Positions 1-62,552 of a stretch of 64,000 bases of DNA are shown here, piece by piece. The translations under genes and the position numbers were made by a program. Location of the stretch: the IMG/VR virus record IMGVR_UViG_3300017987_000009, positions 1 through 64,000 of that record; one strand, given 5' to 3'. Below the pieces are notes generated by a model. The model worked only from the letters and a program-made list of their open reading frames with translations, did not search any database and was not told where the DNA came from. This DNA is from a virus. How positions within the stretch are numbered: the first letter of the stretch is position 1; every line of letters starts with the position of its first letter.

Positions 1-1
1 C

Positions 2-3000
2 GGCGAGCCGAAGGAGGGCGGCGACCCGATGCACCCGCCGATGAAGGACTTGCCGACCAACGTCAAGAACGCGATCAAGAAGGGGAAGCCCGGCGACGGG
101 CTGGCGAACCACGTGCCCGCTGCCGGGCACTACGCGGCGTGGCTCGCGGCCGACAAGCCGTCGAGGACCGTCCTGACCGGGCGGCACCTCGTCCACCCGA
201 GCGGGAAGCGGTGGATCACCGCGCGCGAGGCCGCGCGGATCCAGGAGATCCCCGACGACTACAAGTTCGCGGTCGGCGAGCCCGGGGCGTGGAAGCTGCT
301 TGGCGACTGCGTGCCCGTTAGCCTGGGCACTGCGGTGTCGAAGAGGCTGCTGTCGTTCGTGTCCAAGGCGGTCGAGCCCCAGGTCGACGCGGCCGAGCTC
401 GCCGCCGGCCTCGAGGAGCTGGAGAAGGGGCTGTGGACCTGCGACGACATGGCGAAGGCCGACCCCGGTCTGCAGGGCCAGGCGCGTCGCGCCGAGCGGT
501 CGGACAAGCTGACGGTCGGCGAGTTCTTCCACATGCCTAAGCCGACGCGGCCGGCGCGGCCGGAGGAACTGCAGACGGTCGAGAACCTGCTCTCGCTGTA
601 CAGGGAGCGCGCGGAGAAGTGGCTGCCGACCTTCGTGCAGAAGAAGTACGACGGCGCCAACCACCAGGCGCACGTCGACGGCGACGACGTCAAGATCTTC
701 TCCGAGGACGGCGACGACAACACCGACCGCCTGCCGGGGATCGTCGAGGCGCTGAAGGCGCTCAAGCCCGACAAGCTGGTCGTGCCGATGGAGATCGAGG
801 CCTGGGCCGGGTCGCAGCACCTCCCGCGCGAGGCCGTCGCCGGCTATCTCAACTCGAAGGACGAGCCGGACGACTCGCACCTGGTCGCGAACATCTACGA
901 CGTCATGTGGGACGGCGACGCCGGCGACATCCACAAGTCGCCTACCGAGGAGAGGCTCGAGCGCCTGGCGGAGCTCGGCGTCCCGCAGAGCACGATGGGC
1001 GCGCCCAGCCTCAAGCACCGGCTGAACGCCGCGCCGAGCGTGAAGGCCGACGACCTCGAGGAGCTCGAGCGCGCGACCCGCAGGATCCGCAAGCTGCCCG
1101 GCTCCGAAGGCGTGGTGTGCAAGCACGCCGACGCGCCGTACCCGCTCGCGGAGACGACACCGGACTCGTGGGTCAAGTACCACAACGCGACGACGATCAA
1201 CGCGGTCGTAGTCGACCGCGAGAAGACGGCGGGAGGCGCATGGGTCTACCACTACGCCGTGAGGCCCGGGAAGGACGACCCGGCCGAGACTGTCGAGGTC
1301 AATGGCGAGAAGCTCGTGCCCGTCGGCCTGACGTTCGCGACCTCGCTCGACATCGGCGACGGCGACGGCATCTTGGTCGAGGCGGAGACCGTGAACCTGG
1401 AGCGGTCGCCAGACGGCGCGAAGCTGTCGGCTTGGGTGCCGCGCGCGATCTCCGAGCACGGCCGCGAGCCGGACACCGTCGACGCGGTCGCGTCGCGCGC
1501 ACGGAAGAACCTCGTCCTGCAGGAGAAGGACGTCGACGACGAAGGGAACGTCGAGTACCGCCCGACGCGAAAGGCGGAGAAGCAGCAGGACCCCTACCTC
1601 GAGGTGCCGCCCGACGAGGACCGGTACAGGTTCTCGGTCCAGCACCACTGGCGCGGCCGGAGCGTTCATGCGGACGTGCGTGTCGAGCTCAAGCCGCGGA
1701 AGCTGCTGATCGGCTGGACGATGAACACGCAGATCAAGGGCGCGGTGAAGGAGCCGGTCACCACGCTGGCGGAGGCGAAGCGGTGGTCGTCGGCGCAGAA
1801 CATCGACAAGGTCTCGAAGGTCGACTGGCGCACCGGCGAGTGGGCGTCGCGCCCGAAGGCCGGCACCGACAAGCTGGTCCGCGCGGAGATCCTGTCCGAG
1901 CGGAAGGCGCCCGAGCCGTGGGCGTGGCTCGACGTCGAGGGCAAGACGAAGGACCCCGAGCCCGGCAAGGCGCCGCCCGTCGGCGGGACGCGCCAGTTCC
2001 CGGGCGTGTTCGACCAGGTCGACGAGGGTTGGGTGGAGTTCGGCGCGCAGAAGCCGTGGTTCCACGAGTACTTCTTCCACGGCGGCGGGCTGAACTACCG
2101 GATGTTCTTCCGGCAGCTGCGGCTGTCGAAGTCGGAGGGGGCGGAGGTGTGCGAGGCGTGCGGGAAGGCCGCGGCTGCGCTGGTCGCGTGGGAGGACGCG
2201 CAGCCCACCGCCCTCTGCCGCGCCTGCGTGGACAGCGCGCTCGAGAAGGCCGACGTCGTCTTGCCGCCGAGCGAGGAGCAGTCGATGCCAGAGGGCGCGG
2301 CGTGGCTCGCGATCTACCCGGACGACCAGCAGCCGTACGTGCTGGACACGGACGCGGTCAAGAAGAAGTGGATGCCGCCCGACGGGCGCTCCGCCATGCC
2401 GAAGGCGGTCCGCTCGCAGGTCCCGGCCGAGCACCGGTTCTGGAAGAAGCGCGGTGAGGCGGCGCGGTCCGCGCGCGACGCGCTGGTAGAGGCGCTGCGA
2501 AAGAAGGAGGTCGAGCTCGACTACTCCGCGCCGTACAAGACGGCGAAAGCGTCGATGCTCGACGCGGACTTTGTCCTGCAGGAGCAGACCTGGAAGGGGC
2601 AGACCCAGGTCCGCGTCGGCCCGACCAGGACGAAGTGGTGGCTGCGCCTCGACGTCGGCCGGCCTGAGCTCGTGGTCGTGGAGCTCGAGCGAAACCCGCT
2701 CGACAACGAGGAGGTCGCCGCGCGGGTCGGCCGCGACCGGCACAAGAGCTCGATGAGCCTCGCCGGCGACGTCCCGCCTGGGCACTACCTCAACCCGACG
2801 AAGGAGACGCCGTCGAACGTCGAGCCGCTCGACCACGGGAAGGCGGAGGTGCTTGACCTGTCCGCCGACCTGCTGAAGGTCAAGCTCAAGGGCAAGCGGC
2901 TGAAAGGGCTGTTCACCGCGTCACGCAACGACGGCGAATGGCTGTGGGCCAGGCCGCAGGCCGCGCCAGGCACCGAGGACGCGGAGAAGCGCGTCGAGTT

Positions 3001-3445
3001 CGAGCTGACCATCCCGGTACACCACGTCGAGATCAAGAAGGCGAGGGACGGGAGGGAGAAGCGCCTGGTCACCGGGGTCGTGCTCGAGCCCGACGAGGTC
3101 GACGCGCAGGAGGACTGGGAGCGCGAGGAGACGATCGAGCGCGCGGCGCACGGTTTCCTCAAGGATTACAACAAGCCGGCGTCGGATGACGGCACCCAGC
3201 TTGGCCTGATGCACAGGGCGTTCGGCGACATCGGCCTCGAGCTAGTCGAGTCGTACGTCGCGCCGGCGGACCTCCAGCTGGGCGGGAAGTCGAAGGACAA
3301 GAAGGTCAAAAGAGGCAGCTGGGTGATGACAGTCCACGTCGTCGATGATACAAGGTGGAAAGAGGTCAAGGCCGGCAAGCTAACCGGATTCAGCGTAGGA
3401 GGCGTCGCGACGGTCGCGGGCAAGCGGAACGATGGGCAACAGTAA
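2..3445 (+). CDS. 5'-truncated multidomain head protein: C5 DNA methyltransferase C-terminus + ATP-dependent DNA ligase + LigD phosphoesterase-like domains + XkdF-type prohead serine protease
   Basis: Frame open from nt 2. HPSGKRWITAREAARIQEIPDDYKF..LLGDCVP (MTase motifs IX/X); QKKYDG, NIYDVM, EGVVCK, WVKY (ligase); FSVQHHWRGRSVHADVRVE (LigD PE); KRLVTGVVLEPDEVDAQED..GLMH..KRGSWVM..LTGFSVGG (XkdF-like). Confidence 0.85.
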   Translation, partial: GEPKEGGDPMHPPMKDLPTNVKNAIKKGKPGDGLANHVPAAGHYAAWLAADKPSRTVLTGRHLVHPSGKRWITAREAARIQEIPDDYKFAVGEPGAWKLLGDCVPVSLGTAVSKRLLSFVSKAVEPQVDAAELAAGLEELEKGLWTCDDMAKADPGLQGQARRAERSDKLTVGEFFHMPKPTRPARPEELQTVENLLSLYRERAEKWLPTFVQKKYDGANHQAHVDGDDVKIFSEDGDDNTDRLPGIVEALKALKPDKLVVPMEIEAWAGSQHLPREAVAGYLNSKDEPDDSHLVANIYDVMWDGDAGDIHKSPTEERLERLAELGVPQSTMGAPSLKHRLNAAPSVKADDLEELERATRRIRKLPGSEGVVCKHADAPYPLAETTPDSWVKYHNATTINAVVVDREKTAGGAWVYHYAVRPGKDDPAETVEVNGEKLVPVGLTFATSLDIGDGDGILVEAETVNLERSPDGAKLSAWVPRAISEHGREPDTVDAVASRARKNLVLQEKDVDDEGNVEYRPTRKAEKQQDPYLEVPPDEDRYRFSVQHHWRGRSVHADVRVELKPRKLLIGWTMNTQIKGAVKEPVTTLAEAKRWSSAQNIDKVSKVDWRTGEWASRPKAGTDKLVRAEILSERKAPEPWAWLDVEGKTKDPEPGKAPPVGGTRQFPGVFDQVDEGWVEFGAQKPWFHEYFFHGGGLNYRMFFRQLRLSKSEGAEVCEACGKAAAALVAWEDAQPTALCRACVDSALEKADVVLPPSEEQSMPEGAAWLAIYPDDQQPYVLDTDAVKKKWMPPDGRSAMPKAVRSQVPAEHRFWKKRGEAARSARDALVEALRKKEVELDYSAPYKTAKASMLDADFVLQEQTWKGQTQVRVGPTRTKWWLRLDVGRPELVVVELERNPLDNEEVAARVGRDRHKSSMSLAGDVPPGHYLNPTKETPSNVEPLDHGKAEVLDLSADLLKVKLKGKRLKGLFTASRNDGEWLWARPQAAPGTEDAEKRVEFELTIPVHHVEIKKARDGREKRLVTGVVLEPDEVDAQEDWEREETIERAAHGFLKDYNKPASDDGTQLGLMHRAFGDIGLELVESYVAPADLQLGGKSKDKKVKRGSWVMTVHVVDDTRWKEVKAGKLTGFSVGGVATVAGKRNDGQQ

Positions 3446-4415
3446 CGGCAAACCTGGAGACCTTGACAAGCAGGACGCCCGCGAGATACTAGATCTACGG
3501 GTCAGAGAGGTGTCCCTCGTAGACCGGCCGGCGATCCGGCGCAGTTTCCTGGTTGTAAAACGACAAGAGGAGGATGAGATGGGAGCTTTCCAGGGTGACA
3601 CGGGCAGCGGTGCCGAGGTCGACGAGGTCATCGAGAAGATGGACTGGCACGACATCGACGTCGAGAAGGCGCTGCCGGCCGATCTGGCCAGCGCGATCAA
3701 GGAGGCGGTGGCTTTCATGAAGAAGGCCGCGGGCGAGGAGGGGGCTCCCGCCGACGCGCTCAAGCGCGTGGCCGCGTTCCTCTCGAAGGTCGCGGGCGGC
3801 AAGTACCCGTACCCGAAGCCGGCCGGCAAGACCGACGGCGACGGCGACGGCGACGGCAAGACCGGCGACGGCGACACCTCCAAGCAGGAGAAGTGCCCGG
3901 AGTGCGGCGCGCAGATGAAGGACGGCGTCTGCCCCGAGTGCGGCTACAAGGCCAAGGCCAAGACCCAGAAGTCCGAGGGCCTGACCGTGACCGTCTTGCC
4001 GGACGGCCAGGTGCAGGTGAGCGGCGAGCCGGTCGAGAAGGGCGGCAAGCAGTTCACCGCCGAGCGCATCGCGGGTGTCGGCGCCATCGCGAAGCAGGCG
4101 ATGTCGCTGCTCGCGGAGACCGACCCCGATACGGCGAAGGCGATCATCGCCGAGCTGGTCAAGGCCACGCTGCCGGCCGACCTGAAGTGGACGCAGGGCA
4201 CGCACGCGGTCCCGGCCTCCGTCAAGAAGGAGGACATCGAGGCGGCGGTGAAGGCGGCGGTCGAGCCCATCACGAAGAAGGTCGACGACATCGGCAACAA
4301 GGTCGAGGACATCACCAAGACGCGCGGGGAGCCGAAGTCCGGTGACGGCGACGACGCCGCCGACCAGGAGCCCACGCAGAAGAGCGAGAACTTCTGGAAG
4401 GACTTGCCCCTCTAG
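3432..4415 (+). CDS. Capsid scaffolding protein with N-terminal protease strand (EVSLVDRPA) and zinc ribbon
   Basis: Lies between protease and capsid genes. LDLRVREVSLVDRPA motif, CPECG..CPECG, coiled-coil-like C-terminal half. Second in-frame ATG at 3579 with strong SD GAGGAGG at 3567-3573. Confidence 0.8.
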   Translation: MGNSNGKPGDLDKQDAREILDLRVREVSLVDRPAIRRSFLVVKRQEEDEMGAFQGDTGSGAEVDEVIEKMDWHDIDVEKALPADLASAIKEAVAFMKKAAGEEGAPADALKRVAAFLSKVAGGKYPYPKPAGKTDGDGDGDGKTGDGDTSKQEKCPECGAQMKDGVCPECGYKAKAKTQKSEGLTVTVLPDGQVQVSGEPVEKGGKQFTAERIAGVGAIAKQAMSLLAETDPDTAKAIIAELVKATLPADLKWTQGTHAVPASVKKEDIEAAVKAAVEPITKKVDDIGNKVEDITKTRGEPKSGDGDDAADQEPTQKSENFWKDLPL

Positions 4416-4474: not shown

Positions 4475-5668
4475 ATGACAAACGAGGAGTTGATCCAGAA
4501 GGCGATCACCGTCGCGGAGGCGCTGGTCACGCAGGGGAAGCTCAACCCGGCCCAGGCCGACAAGTTCATCGACTACGTCATCGACGAGTCCGTGATGCAG
4601 AACAACGTCCGGGTCGCGCGGTTCCGGAACGAAGAGTTGCACATCGACAAGATCGGCATCGGCAAGCGCGTGATGCACCCGGCGGTCGAGTACCAGGCCC
4701 CGGAGCGGCGCCTCGGCGTGTCGACCTCGCAGGTCAAGCTGAGCCCCCAGGAGGTCATCACCGCGTTCGACATCGGGGACAGCTTCAAGGAGCTGAACCT
4801 CGAGGGCGAGTCGGTGCAGGACCGGATCATCCGCATGTTCGCCACCGGCTGGCGGAACGACGCGGAGCTCCTGGAGCTGAACGGGGACACGGTCGGCCAG
4901 GCGTCGCTCGAGGGCGACGTCTGGGACGGCGGGTCGACCACGCAGTACATCAAGGACGACCTGCTCTCGATGTTCGACGGCTGGCTGCGGCTGTCAGACG
5001 GGGCCCACCTCGTCGACGTCCAGGGCGCCAACATCGGGCTGTCCGTCTTCGGGCAGATGATCCGGGCCATGCCTCAGAAGTTCCGGAGGAACAAGAAGGA
5101 GCTGCGGTTCTTCATGAGCTCCGACCTGGCGCAGATCTACATCGAGAAGATCGCGACCCGCATGACCGACAAGGGCGACAAGGCGGCCGAGGGCGAGACC
5201 CAGACGCCGTTCGGCATCCCCATCGTCGAGGTCCCGCTGATGGACCACCAGCCGACCGTCGTGGAGAGCGTCACGCTGGACGACGTGACCCCGGTCTCGC
5301 TCCGGTACGCGCCGGTGTCGAACGTCGTGGTCCTGCCCGACGCCCTCGACAAGACGCCCACCACGCCGTACCCGAACAACCTGACGGGCGGCGCGATCGT
5401 GAACGAGGCGGCGGGCACGCTCCTGTCGTTCGACAGCGGCAGCGGCCTCGACGGCGTCACCGTCAAGGTGACGTACTCCGCGCAGCCCATGCTCATGCTG
5501 ACGCACTGGCAGAACTTCATCATCGGCATCGGTCGCGACATCCGCATCGAGAAGCAGCGGAACATCCACAAGCGCGCCGACGAGTACGTCGTGACCGGCA
5601 AGCTCTCCGTGCAGATGGAGGAGCTGGACGCCGTCGTCAAGGCCTACAACGTCGGGCTCGGGGTCTAG
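4475..5668 (+). CDS. Major capsid protein (HK97 fold, XkdG-like)
   Basis: GKLNPAQADKFIDYVIDES N-terminus, LTHWQNFIIGIGRDIRIE C-terminal motif, strong SD GGGAGGAGAGG, position after scaffold. Confidence 0.92.
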   Translation: MTNEELIQKAITVAEALVTQGKLNPAQADKFIDYVIDESVMQNNVRVARFRNEELHIDKIGIGKRVMHPAVEYQAPERRLGVSTSQVKLSPQEVITAFDIGDSFKELNLEGESVQDRIIRMFATGWRNDAELLELNGDTVGQASLEGDVWDGGSTTQYIKDDLLSMFDGWLRLSDGAHLVDVQGANIGLSVFGQMIRAMPQKFRRNKKELRFFMSSDLAQIYIEKIATRMTDKGDKAAEGETQTPFGIPIVEVPLMDHQPTVVESVTLDDVTPVSLRYAPVSNVVVLPDALDKTPTTPYPNNLTGGAIVNEAAGTLLSFDSGSGLDGVTVKVTYSAQPMLMLTHWQNFIIGIGRDIRIEKQRNIHKRADEYVVTGKLSVQMEELDAVVKAYNVGLGV

Positions 5669-11803: not shown

Positions 11804-12120
11804 TGATCGTGAAGCGTTACAGGATGAGACTCGCGCTGGTGTCGGAAATCGTCCGCGGTCAGTTCGACGAGTATGTTCGTGCGGATGAGATCACCGGCAT
11901 CGCCTTCGACGGACCCTATGTGGAGCAGGATCTCAAGTTGAAGGACGGCTGTGACCAGTCCATCGTAGATAACATGCACGCGAGGATGCTCGCGGCAGGC
12001 TGGGAGTACGTCGAGGACGACCCGTCCACGCAGCCGACCATCGTGTGCTGCGACGCAGATGGCAAGGAGACGCGACTGGAAGATGCCCTGAAGGACGTTG
12101 TGACGGCGCGGGAGCCGTAG
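11803..12120 (+). CDS. Hypothetical protein (possible fibre chaperone)
   Basis: TGATG overlap with the upstream gene. Confidence 0.6.
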   Translation: MIVKRYRMRLALVSEIVRGQFDEYVRADEITGIAFDGPYVEQDLKLKDGCDQSIVDNMHARMLAAGWEYVEDDPSTQPTIVCCDADGKETRLEDALKDVVTAREP

Positions 12121-61996: not shown

Positions 61997-62318
61997 GCTG
62001 CTGAGGGAGTACGCGGCCGCCGCGCTGCCGCAGCCGGTACGGCGGAAGTACCCGGCGATGGTCGGCCAGCTGCAGCGCGCGCTGAAGGTATGGTGGAACG
62101 CTTACCTGAGCGCGAAGGAGCGCGAGGAGTTCCGCAGGCTCGCGGAGAGGCTGGGGCCGCTGCCGGACCGGCTCAAGCGGTTCGCCCGCGACCGCGGGAT
62201 CATCGTCGAGTGGCCGCGGCTGATGGAGAGGGGCGAGCCAAAGAAACCGCGCCGCCGCGACTGGGGCAAGCCGAAGTCGTGGCGGCACAGGCAGTACGGG
62301 CCGAGGAGGGCGCGATGA
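61977..62318 (+). CDS. Hypothetical basic protein
   Basis: SD GGAGGT; typical codons. Confidence 0.6.
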   Translation: MNAKTAKLLREYAAAALPQPVRRKYPAMVGQLQRALKVWWNAYLSAKEREEFRRLAERLGPLPDRLKRFARDRGIIVEWPRLMERGEPKKPRRRDWGKPKSWRHRQYGPRRAR

Positions 62319-62552
62319 AGGAGCGAGGCGACGTCGAGGTGTTGGAGTCGGACCTCACCGATGGTCGTTGGACTCTGAAGATTCGAGTCCACGACGACCG
62401 GTTGTGGAAGATAATCAAGGGAGAGTACCGACCGTGGTGGCTACGAGTGGTCAACTTTTTCCGGTGGCTGTTTCGCTTGCCGCCTATCCACGGACGTCGC
62501 GTGGGGGCGTTCTCGATCGGCGGCAAGGTGGAAGGAAGGGCGCGATGAAGGA
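62307..62552 (+). repeat. 16-bp direct repeat flanking a small gene
   Basis: AGGGCGCGATGAAGGA at 62307-62322 and 62537-62552. Confidence 0.85.
62315..62548 (+). CDS. Hypothetical protein (lower GC)
   Basis: ATGA overlap, SD GAGGAGG. Confidence 0.55.
   Translation: MKERGDVEVLESDLTDGRWTLKIRVHDDRLWKIIKGEYRPWWLRVVNFFRWLFRLPPIHGRRVGAFSIGGKVEGRAR

What the first reader, a model, noticed from the sequence alone, without database searches (positions are those of the whole stretch)
2..3445. Prohead protease is the last domain of a polyprotein of DNA-modifying and repair enzymes
Seen: one uninterrupted frame encodes C5-MTase motifs IX/X (~190-320), an ATP-dependent ligase with OB region (KYDG at 644-655), a LigD phosphoesterase-like domain (QHH..H.D.R, ~1630-1690), a CxxC..CxxC knuckle, a second degenerate PE-like unit (~2560-2960) and an XkdF-type protease (~3040-3445), directly upstream of scaffold and capsid. 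Established: prohead proteases are built into the procapsid. Inference: the enzymes are carried into the head, released by the protease and possibly ejected with the DNA to heal and seal ends, circularise the genome or counter restriction before any gene expression. Some catalytic positions deviate (ligase motif III PME, motif V WVKYH; PE distal His/Tyr appear replaced), so activity is not assured.
Basis: partly seen in the sequence, partly recalled or inferred. Interest (0 to 1): 0.87.

Follow-up and report, generated by a model that had tools for sequence, protein, structure and literature searches.

The report
Enzyme-loaded prohead protease polyprotein
A virus has fused a DNA methylase, a DNA ligase and two DNA-end-cleaning domains to its only capsid-maturation protease, and many related viruses do the same, which suggests (unproven) that the protease carries enzymes into the capsid for the next infection.

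Summary
The frame continues across the circular junction of a complete 91.6-kb viral record, giving a 1341-aa protein. In order, it contains:
- a complete C5-MTase
- an ATP-dependent ligase (nucleotidyltransferase plus OB domain)
- a LigD-type phosphoesterase barrel (PE1) that keeps the H..H.D.R metal site
- a variable Zn knuckle and a conserved helical segment
- a second PE barrel (PE2) without the metal site
- a C-terminal XkdF protease

Scaffold and capsid genes follow directly.

XkdF is the only recognisable prohead protease in the genome. About 70 homologous proteins and 80 viral loci share the ligase-PE-PE core. The N-terminal enzymes vary: Dam, UDG, 2H phosphoesterases and an ASCH-NTase module.

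In all 150 nearest XkdF representatives the protease lies at the extreme C-terminus, behind 0 to about 2000 residues.

This matches the published "polyvalent protein" idea (Iyer et al. 2017). That paper covers neither XkdF nor a ligase/PE module. Loading into the capsid and ejection with the DNA are plausible but inferred, not shown. A divergent vsr gene beside the methylase suggests that the virus methylates its own DNA.

Verdict: a real feature and a new variant of a known kind. Interest 0.65.

The parts
1..123 (.). Terminal repeat of the assembled record (identical to its last 123 bp). It marks the circular junction inside the MTase-coding part of the gene.
   Evidence: 100% identity of window 1-123 with G000 91466-91588. 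The frame is continuous across the junction.
2..454 (+). C-terminal half of the C5 cytosine DNA methyltransferase domain (target-recognition region, motifs IX and X). The N-terminal half (motifs I, IV, VI, VIII) lies upstream of the junction at genome 90885-91465.
   Evidence: PF00145 scores 1.7e-42 over residues 4-310 of the full protein. Motifs were read.
467..1564 (+). ATP-dependent ligase: nucleotidyltransferase domain (nt 629-1180, KYDG at 644-655) plus OB domain.
   Evidence: PF01068 scores 5e-17. It is the only PF01068 hit in the genome. A family profile matches archaeal DNA ligases 4eq5/3rr5/3gde at E about 1e-20 across the NTase and OB domains.
1622..2131 (+). PE1: a LigD-type 3'-phosphoesterase barrel. 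It keeps the His..His-x-Asp-x-Arg site and adds an invariant His-Glu-Tyr.
   Evidence: AF2 pLDDT 91.9. Matches 3p4h at Z 12.2 and 3n9b at Z 10.4; the next hit is Z 3.7. Profile versus PDB: 3p43 4.5e-4, 3p4h 7.9e-4. Invariant residues.
2150..2248 (+). CxxC...CxxC zinc-knuckle insertion, present only in the closest relatives.
   Evidence: Weak Zn_ribbon_8 hit, E 0.15. The alignment shows it as a variable insertion.
2291..2539 (+). Conserved Pro/Trp-rich helical segment between the two PE barrels. Its fold was not identified.
   Evidence: High pLDDT (96-98) and invariant Trp and Pro columns.
2561..2962 (+). PE2: a second LigD-PE-fold barrel that lacks the His/Asp/Arg site.
   Evidence: Matches 3p4h at Z 15.6 (rmsd 2.0 A, 115 residues) and 3p43 at Z 15.5. 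Profile versus PDB: 3p43 6.7e-8.
3038..3445 (+). XkdF-type (Peptidase_S78_2) putative prohead serine protease, the last domain, followed by the stop codon.
   Evidence: PF14550 scores 1e-25. It is the only hit above cut-off in the genome. Asp, His and Ser are invariant across 31 homologues.
3432..4415 (+). Scaffold-like protein. Its start overlaps the polyprotein stop by 14 nt. It has its own Zn ribbon and ends in FWKDLPL.
   Evidence: Matches the C-terminal part of phrog_3017, a protease-scaffold fusion family. Sequence.
4475..5668 (+). Major capsid protein.
   Evidence: phrog_1623 scores 3.5e-75. About 33% identity to major capsid proteins of Streptomyces phages.

Best explanation
The ORF is a real 1341-aa 'polyvalent' head protein. 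It sits where a prohead protease gene normally sits: after terminase, portal, a MuF-fusion protein and an ASCH-NTase gene, and directly before scaffold and capsid.

Its C-terminal XkdF domain is the virus's only recognisable maturation protease. That domain therefore has to enter the procapsid.

Inferred: the 1200 residues fused in front of it go in with it. These are the C5-MTase, the ligase with its OB domain, a probably active LigD-like phosphoesterase barrel, and a second barrel that is probably non-catalytic.

Inferred: once activated, the protease digests the scaffold and cuts the inter-domain linkers. The folded enzyme domains are too large to escape the shell. They stay in the head and enter the next host with the DNA.

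Inferred: in the new host, the PE domain would clean 3' ends (3'-phosphate or ribonucleotide ends) and the ligase would seal them. The methylase would protect the genome before any viral gene is expressed.

Shown here: the architecture, the folds, the gene position, the absence of any other recognisable protease, the modular family, and XkdF as a strictly C-terminal domain behind variable enzyme modules.
For: Architecture and folds.

Gene order TerL-portal-MuF-[ASCH-NTase]-polyprotein-scaffold-MCP. The same order holds in about 20 related loci.

XkdF is the only prohead-protease family found in the complete genome. No S78, ClpP or S49 was found; the S77 search rang in no control genome and is uninformative.

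The putative catalytic Asp, His and Ser are invariant in 31 homologues.

In all 150 nearest XkdF representatives the domain ends within 15 residues of the C-terminus. N-terminal extensions are <100 aa in 20, 100-600 in 70 and >600 in 60.

Stand-alone XkdF proteins of about 150 aa, followed by a separate scaffold gene, occur in cultured phages such as Pseudomonas phage NoPa. The domain therefore needs no covalent scaffold tail.

The cargo is swappable and of counter-defence type: Dam, C5-MTase, UDG, 2H/LigT/Acb1-like, InPase. It varies between close relatives. L024 has a 72%-identical MCP but lacks the ligase.

Late-operon expression of counter-defence enzymes makes most sense if they are stored for the next infection (inference).

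Precedent in print: polyvalent proteins with C-terminal head peptidases, inferred to be packaged (PMC5512222).
Against: There is no direct evidence that the enzyme domains are in virions.

XkdF is only a 'putative' protease in Pfam. No experimental work on its cleavage was found in the papers searched here.

The polyprotein lacks the [FL]WxxLPL C-terminal tail carried by the scaffold.

No frameshift signal that would join the polyprotein to the scaffold was seen.

The candidate Lys cleavage motifs in the linkers are not statistically separable from shared ancestry. [EQ]K also occurs inside domains.

The conserved vsr partner of the MTase points to methylation of the viral genome. That could take place in the cytoplasm.

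The ligase-PE-PE unit also exists without XkdF. In ANMV-1 it is not flanked by recognisable head genes; a terminase gene lies about 4 kb away on the opposite strand.

Ligase motif V (WxKxH) and the PE1 counterparts of LigD His84 and Tyr88 deviate from characterised enzymes.
Confidence: 0.5

Rival explanations
1. Late cytoplasmic enzymes. The polyprotein acts before or during packaging: the MTase methylates progeny DNA and the ligase/PE heals nicks in concatemers. The fusion to the protease only provides late co-expression or brings the enzymes near assembling heads. Whatever enters the procapsid is degraded with the scaffold.
For: The divergent vsr gene next to the C5-MTase is conserved in the two other C5-MTase-bearing loci recovered. 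This implies the virus's own DNA is 5mC-methylated and maintained.

The polyprotein holds the only ATP-dependent ligase domain in the genome.

The ligase-PE-PE unit also occurs unfused to any protease.
Against: This does not explain why 130 of the 150 nearest XkdF proteins carry N-terminal extensions of at least 100 aa with interchangeable counter-defence enzymes.

It does not explain why the ligase is dispensable in close relatives.

Folded 15-40 kDa domains are unlikely to diffuse out of a closed shell (general knowledge).
Confidence: 0.3
2. The phosphoesterase barrels, with or without the ligase, do not act on the viral genome's ends. They act on RNA ends or on nucleotide second messengers. 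Examples are healing and sealing of tRNAs cut by host anticodon nucleases, or hydrolysis of cyclic or 2',3'-cyclic-phosphate signalling molecules. This question is independent of whether the protein is packaged.
For: 2H/LigT/Acb1-like phosphoesterases fill the same N-terminal cargo position in sister XkdF proteins. They also co-occur with the ligase in 5 of 31 polyproteins.

The PE1-PE2 pair often occurs with XkdF but without a ligase.

An ASCH domain (usually RNA-binding) plus a Pol-beta nucleotidyltransferase is a conserved partner.

LigD PE domains act on 3' ribonucleotide and 3'-phosphate ends (from memory of the Shuman laboratory's work).
Against: In nearly all of the 80 loci the PE pair is fused to, or adjacent to, a ligase. 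That ligase's best structural relatives are replicative DNA ligases.

The co-fused domains are DNA enzymes: C5 and Dam MTases and UDG.
Confidence: 0.2
3. Artefact: a chimeric assembly, missed stop codons, or a decayed fusion of dead domains.
For: The gene spans the junction of the assembled contig. Some catalytic positions deviate from characterised enzymes.
Against: The same 1341-aa protein is recorded on three contigs. A 77%-identical homologue is collinear over its full length. More than 30 further homologues share the same domain order.

The deviating positions are themselves conserved across the family, as expected under selection.
Confidence: 0.01

Closest known systems
Polyvalent proteins of phages and conjugative elements (Iyer, Burroughs, Anand, de Souza, Aravind 2017; PMC5512222)
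   Same: One polypeptide carries many unrelated enzymatic domains. It is encoded in the head module next to MuF and portal genes. It contains an embedded peptidase thought to separate the domains. MTases, 2H, InPase and Pol-beta NTase domains are shared with that set. The paper states that an 'assemblin-like' head peptidase is always C-terminal in such proteins.
   Different: XkdF does not occur in that paper's text. The same laboratory later calls XkdF unrelated to the assemblin (SH) superfamily. No DNA ligase or LigD-PE domain is in their domain set. They state that their 2H domains never co-occur with RNA ligases, whereas 2H domains and an ATP-dependent ligase share one polypeptide here.
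Bacterial LigD (NHEJ ligase: PrimPol + PE + ligase, working with Ku)
   Same: A ligase is combined with a 3'-phosphoesterase barrel of the same fold (Z 12-16 against solved PE domains). PE1 keeps the His-His-Asp-Arg metal and phosphate site.
   Different: There is no AEP PrimPol domain and no Ku in the genome. The ligase is closer to archaeal replicative ligases (E about 1e-20) than to the LigD ligase domain (about 1e-7). There are two PE barrels, one without the active site. The counterparts of LigD His84 and Tyr88 are replaced. A Pol-beta NTase (upstream gene, fused in relatives) may stand in for the polymerase; this is inference.
Protease-scaffold fusion of cultured relatives (Streptomyces phage Yaboi gp51, phrog_3017) and stand-alone XkdF (Pseudomonas phage NoPa gp3)
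   Same: The XkdF domain is the same. The position between portal and MCP is the same.
   Different: In Yaboi, XkdF is N-terminal and followed by about 300 aa of scaffold-like sequence. In NoPa, XkdF stands alone at 154 aa. In the window it is the C-terminal 10% of a 1341-aa enzyme polyprotein, and the scaffold is a separate overlapping gene.
Head-packaged anti-restriction and internal proteins: phage P1 DarB (MTase/helicase) and T4 IPI* (from memory, plus PMC5512222 for P1 Dar)
   Same: Enzymes or inhibitors are loaded into the head during assembly. They are processed by a head protease (T4) and injected with the DNA to act before gene expression.
   Different: Those proteins are targeted by separate signals or partner proteins. 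They are not covalently fused to the maturation protease. None is a ligase or an end-healing enzyme.
ANMV-1 virus 'ATP-dependent DNA ligase' AJP62006 (867 aa)
   Same: It has the same ligase-PE1-helical-PE2 unit, at 28% identity over 815 residues, E 1e-66.
   Different: It stands alone, has no XkdF, and is not flanked by recognisable head genes; a terminase gene lies about 4 kb away on the opposite strand.

Membership tests
C5 cytosine DNA methyltransferase (PF00145) | Full-length profile match with motifs I (FxGxG), IV (PC), VI (ENV), VIII (QxRxR), IX and X | tested here: met
   PF00145 scores 1.7e-42 over profile positions 2-322 of 324. FCGIGG, PCEPFS, ENV and QARKR were read. Motifs IX/X were read. 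A vsr partner gene is adjacent.
ATP-dependent DNA ligase | Nucleotidyltransferase motifs I (KxDGxR), III, IIIa and IV | tested here: met
   KYDG lies at nt 644-655. The family consensus shows KKxDGxR, ExExW, DVL and EGxVxK. PF01068 scores 5e-17.
ATP-dependent DNA ligase | Motif V WxKxK (two lysines) | tested here: not met
   The family consensus is WxKxHN. The second Lys is His throughout. The change is conserved, so it is probably a variant rather than decay.
ATP-dependent DNA ligase | OB domain following the NTase domain | tested here: met
   The profile alignment to 4eq5 covers chain residues 258-557 of 571, spanning the adenylation and OB domains. Motif VI was not clearly identified.
LigD 3'-phosphoesterase (PE) superfamily | Eight-stranded PE barrel fold | tested here: met
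   PE1: Z 12.2, rmsd 2.2 A over 110 of 118 residues against 3p4h. PE2: Z 15.6, rmsd 2.0 A over 115 residues. LigD PE structures are the only significant Foldseek hits.
LigD 3'-phosphoesterase (PE) superfamily | Metal and phosphate site His42/His48/Asp50/Arg52 (P. aeruginosa numbering, from memory) | tested here: met
   PE1 has the second His, the Asp and the Arg invariant and the first His nearly invariant. They align with the LigD motif. PE2 lacks them.
LigD 3'-phosphoesterase (PE) superfamily | Distal His84 and Tyr88 | tested here: not met
   The HMM alignment places Glu at the His84 position and an invariant Trp at the Tyr88 position in PE1. A family-specific invariant His-Glu-Tyr sits on a later strand.
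LigD 3'-phosphoesterase (PE) superfamily | Mn-dependent 3'-phosphatase and 3'-ribonuclease activity | not testable with these tools
   This requires a biochemical assay.
Bacterial LigD / Ku NHEJ system | AEP PrimPol domain and a Ku partner | tested here: not met
   There is no PrimPol Pfam hit in the polyprotein. There is no Ku in the complete genome.
XkdF / Peptidase_S78_2 prohead protease | Profile match above the curated cut-off and conserved putative catalytic residues | tested here: met
   90.6 bits against a cut-off of 24, covering profile positions 7-123 of 126. Asp, His and Ser are invariant in 31 and in 46 homologues.
XkdF / Peptidase_S78_2 prohead protease | Gene position between portal and scaffold/MCP, and role as the virus's prohead protease | tested here: met
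   Gene order. No other protease family was found in the genome. Proteolytic activity itself was not tested.
Polyvalent proteins (Iyer et al. 2017) | At least two disparate catalytic domains in one polypeptide, an embedded peptidase, and a head-module context next to MuF and portal | tested here: met
   Definition from PMC5512222.
Polyvalent proteins (Iyer et al. 2017) | Packaging into the virion and delivery into the host | not testable with these tools
   This requires virion proteomics or infection experiments.

The most novel reading that the evidence does not exclude
XkdF is a general C-terminal anchor that loads cargo into the capsid. This virus uses it to deliver a self-contained kit that heals and seals DNA ends. 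The kit is a non-orthologous analogue of LigD. A Pol-beta NTase from the neighbouring gene (fused in relatives) would add nucleotides. PE1 would trim ends. The ligase would seal them. The kit would repair or circularise the injected genome, and the methylase would protect it, before any viral gene is expressed.
Probability: 0.3. Interest if true: 0.82.

Novelty: new variant of a known kind. Interest (0 to 1): 0.65.

Why it matters
If the cargo reading is right, a small protease domain of about 130 aa is enough to load proteins of up to about 2000 residues into tailed-phage capsids. That would be a natural, modular packaging handle. It could be tested directly and reused to load foreign proteins into capsids.

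It would also show a counter-defence strategy that is not described in the papers I could search. The virus would bring its own ligase and 3'-end-cleaning enzyme along with the DNA. Nicks or breaks made by host nucleases, or the genome ends themselves, could then be repaired before transcription starts.

Independently of packaging, the ligase-PE-PE unit is a widespread viral enzyme combination (80 loci recovered in one capped scan; about 70 proteins in the protein search). It has a variant active site and conserved partners (ASCH and Pol-beta NTase). It extends the LigD-PE superfamily into viruses.

The survey also explains a recurrent misannotation. Small XkdF proteases of cultured phages are labelled "DNA methyltransferase". 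The label probably spread from fusion proteins such as this one.

Tried and rejected
1. Pfam on the single sequence gave no LigD PE hit at E <= 1. The PE assignment needed family profiles and structure models.

2. I looked for a programmed frameshift that would join the polyprotein to the scaffold. The scaffold is in the +1 frame and is open only from nt 3399. I saw no slippery or prfB-like site by eye, so I dropped the idea.

3. I looked for a protease cleavage motif. Conserved Lys-containing motifs sit at the four module boundaries: VEKQ..RAAS, VEKQ.DPY, K-AS.LDA and AEK-R.EFE. However, [EQ]K also occurs inside domains. The pre-PE1 motif is part of the PE fold. Conservation cannot be separated from shared ancestry. 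I keep these only as candidate sites.

4. The 'DNA methyltransferase/prohead protease' labels in cultured Rhizobium, Lactococcus and Pseudomonas phages looked like MTase-XkdF fusions. The proteins are 154-349 aa and have no MTase-sized extra region. I judge the labels to be annotation artefacts; I did not scan these proteins against Pfam.

5. I tried to establish the context of the distant ligase / PE-PE gene pairs (L062-L088). PHROGs recognised almost nothing there. A terminase lies 14-25 kb away on the same strand in 3 of 5 records. This is suggestive only.

6. An Rfam scan of the about 600-nt 'gap' upstream of the gene found nothing credible. The gap holds a minus-strand vsr gene instead.

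7. The ESM Atlas feature search on the upstream protein returned nothing usable.

8. A BLAST comparison of Yaboi gp51 with the window's scaffold was too weak to align the scaffold parts.

9. Host assignment failed. Some homologues sit in Thorarchaeota and Hodarchaeales MAGs. The nearest cultured capsid proteins are from Streptomyces and Rhodococcus phages, and the window has 68% G+C. The host remains open.

Full report
**What is there.**

The window is the first 64 kb of a 91,588-bp IMG/VR viral record. Its first 123 bp are repeated at its end.

The open frame at 2..3445 continues upstream across that junction. It reaches an ATG preceded by GGAGGA, 582 nt before window position 2.

The complete product is 1341 aa. 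Exactly this protein is on record from three contigs (longest 91,609 bp). A 77%-identical 1336-aa homologue is collinear over the whole length. The frame is therefore neither truncated in the replicating genome nor chimeric.

**Domains.**

The recovered N-terminus supplies C5-MTase motifs I (FCGIGG), IV (PCEPFS), VI (ENV) and VIII (QARKR). Together with the window part, it gives a full-length PF00145 match at 1.7e-42.

The ligase nucleotidyltransferase domain scores 5e-17 against PF01068. A family profile aligns to archaeal DNA ligases at E about 1e-20 across both the adenylation and OB domains. The match to the M. tuberculosis LigD ligase domain is much weaker, at about 1e-7. Motif V is WxKxH throughout the family.

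Pfam did not recognise the middle 480 residues. Three results identified them:
- A profile of 36 homologues finds only LigD 3'-phosphoesterase structures (3p43 at 6.7e-8, 3p4h at 2.5e-7).
- An AlphaFold model of the region (pLDDT 85.8) places the second unit on 3p4h at Z 15.6, rmsd 2.0 A over 115 residues.
- A separate model of the first unit (pLDDT 91.9) gives Z 12.2 against 3p4h and Z 10.4 against P. aeruginosa LigD PE. The next hit is Z 3.7.

PE1 keeps the His..His-x-Asp-x-Arg site. The second His, the Asp and the Arg are invariant and the first His is nearly invariant. The counterparts of LigD His84 and Tyr88 are replaced by Glu and an invariant Trp. PE1 also has an invariant His-Glu-Tyr on a later strand. 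PE2 has the fold but not the site.

Between the two barrels lie a CxxC..CxxC knuckle, found only in the closest relatives, and a strongly conserved helical segment of unknown fold.

The last 130 residues match PF14550 (XkdF) at 1e-25.

**Context.**

Upstream lie:
- terminase
- portal
- a 1248-aa MuF fusion with a weak HipA-like kinase hit
- a gene whose real product (about 526 aa) is an ASCH domain plus a helical region plus a Pol-beta-type nucleotidyltransferase motif. The ASCH assignment rests on PDB 2dp9 at 3e-7.

Downstream, a scaffold-like gene overlaps the stop codon by 14 nt. The major capsid protein follows.

XkdF is the only prohead-protease family detectable in the complete genome. 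S78, ClpP and S49 are absent. The S77 search rang in no control genome either, so it says nothing.

The polyprotein also carries the only ATP-dependent ligase domain in the genome. There is no Ku.

The apparent 600-nt gap before the gene holds a minus-strand vsr gene (Pfam Vsr at 7e-20). The same vsr/C5-MTase pair precedes the two other C5-MTase-bearing polyprotein loci recovered.

In relatives that lack this cassette, the ASCH-NTase sequence is fused to the N-terminus of the polyprotein. A dcm-vsr cassette therefore appears to have split an ancestral, longer polyprotein.

**The family.**

A search with the ligase-to-PE2 region found 71 proteins. BLAST breakpoints define separable modules: variable N-terminus, ligase, PE1 plus helical segment, PE2, and XkdF. 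Insertions occur at the linkers.

A scan of IMG/VR returned 80 loci, which is the cap for one scan. In nearly all of them the PE1-PE2 unit is fused to a ligase or lies immediately downstream of one. XkdF is appended in one subset. In all of those loci that extend downstream, scaffold (and, where the contig continues, MCP) follow directly. Where upstream sequence is held, portal and MuF precede.

Among 31 XkdF-bearing members, Pfam finds:

| Domain | Members |
|---|---|
| Ligase | 23 |
| Dam | 12 |
| 2H phosphoesterase | 5 |
| C5-MTase | 3 |
| UDG | 3 |
| Intein/LAGLIDADG | 1 |
| PLP enzyme | 1 |

The relative with the most similar capsid (72% identity) lacks the ligase. The ligase is therefore accessory.

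**XkdF as an anchor.**

A search with the XkdF domain alone against 1.84 billion representatives gave 4522 hits. In all 150 best hits the domain ends within 15 residues of the C-terminus. N-terminal extensions are under 30 aa in 6, 30-100 in 14, 100-300 in 37, 300-600 in 33, 600-1000 in 30 and over 1000 in 30.

Forty-six of these without a ligase or PE domain carry Dam (12), 2H-type phosphoesterases including Acb1-like (11), InPase (4) and unknown domains.

Cultured phages show the two other states:
- XkdF at the N-terminus with a scaffold-like tail (Streptomyces phage Yaboi gp51)
- a stand-alone 154-aa XkdF followed by a separate scaffold gene (Pseudomonas phage NoPa)

The domain therefore needs no covalent scaffold tail, and it tolerates anything from nothing to 2000 residues in front of it.

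**Mechanism.**

Shown: the architecture, the folds, the position, the absence of any other recognisable protease, and the modular cargo pattern.

Inferred:
- The protease domain takes the fused enzymes into the procapsid.
- It digests the scaffold and cuts the linkers.
- The folded enzymes remain in the head and enter the next cell with the DNA.

Two arguments support this. Counter-defence enzymes made only from the late operon are of little use in the current cycle. [quoted passage not shown]

Conserved Lys-containing motifs at the four module boundaries are candidate cleavage sites but are unproven.

The likely chemistry is 3'-end cleaning by PE1 and sealing by the ligase. PE2 may be a non-catalytic DNA-binding copy. 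The neighbouring Pol-beta NTase may be a functional stand-in for the LigD polymerase. These last points are speculative.

The vsr partner suggests the MTase targets the virus's own DNA. That is compatible both with action in the cytoplasm before packaging and with action after injection.

**Comparison and novelty.**

The protein works like a polyvalent head protein, and its repair core works like LigD.

It is not a LigD. It has no PrimPol domain and no Ku partner, and its ligase is of a different type.

The 2017 polyvalent-protein survey does not mention XkdF. The same laboratory later called XkdF unrelated to the assemblin superfamily. The survey's domain set contains no DNA ligase and no PE domain. 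It states that its 2H domains never accompany RNA ligases.

I found no paper linking LigD-type PE domains to phages or virions. The literature library I could search is incomplete.

I therefore rate this a new variant of a known kind, with interest 0.65. The concept is published. The XkdF anchor rule and the viral ligase-PE-PE kit appear not to be. Both are directly testable.

Noticed in passing
L003:14216-14680 (minus strand; genome about 90215-90679, just upstream of the window across the junction): A vsr (very-short-patch repair endonuclease) gene lies divergent from the C5-MTase start of the polyprotein. The same pair occurs in L020 and L021. It looks like a dcm-vsr cassette inserted into an ancestral longer polyprotein.
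   Followed up: yes
L003:12700-14280 (the listed ORF starts at 12007, but its first 230 codons look like out-of-frame high-GC noise): The upstream gene encodes an ASCH domain, a helical region and a Pol-beta-type nucleotidyltransferase motif (GG..GDxDILV). Homologous segments are fused to the N-terminus of the polyprotein in relatives. In distant loci they are fused to the ligase gene.
   Followed up: partly
L003:8185-11931: A second large head-module fusion protein (1248 aa) has a MuF domain, a weak HipA-like kinase hit and about 650 further unassigned residues. This virus therefore has two polyvalent-type head proteins.
   Followed up: no
L094:3857-4906, L095:3003-3467, L005:6007-6645: XkdF proteases of cultured Lactococcus, Pseudomonas and Rhizobium phages, and PHROG 1530, are labelled 'DNA methyltransferase'. 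They are too short (154-349 aa) to hold an MTase domain. The label has probably spread from fusion proteins like the one in this window.
   Followed up: partly
L014:4602-9830 (also P0023): In this relative the ligase domain is interrupted right after the KYDG motif by an intein with a LAGLIDADG nuclease (about 350 aa).
   Followed up: no
window 3432-4415: The scaffold-like protein has its own CPECG..CPECG zinc ribbon and ends in FWKDLPL. The polyprotein has a zinc knuckle but no such tail.
   Followed up: partly
window 62306-62428: There is a weak partial match to the XkdF profile (E 0.006, below cut-off, profile positions 72-113) in a 183-aa open frame. It is probably chance.
   Followed up: no
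P0106: This 592-aa representative protein carries two XkdF domains (about residues 144-286 and 467-578).
   Followed up: no
P0014, P0053: Homologous polyproteins are filed under Thorarchaeota and Hodarchaeales MAGs, and the ligase-PE-PE unit occurs in the ANME-1 virus ANMV-1. The window itself has 68% G+C, and its capsid is closest to those of Streptomyces and Rhodococcus phages. The family may span bacterial and archaeal viruses, or viral contigs may have been mis-binned.
   Followed up: no
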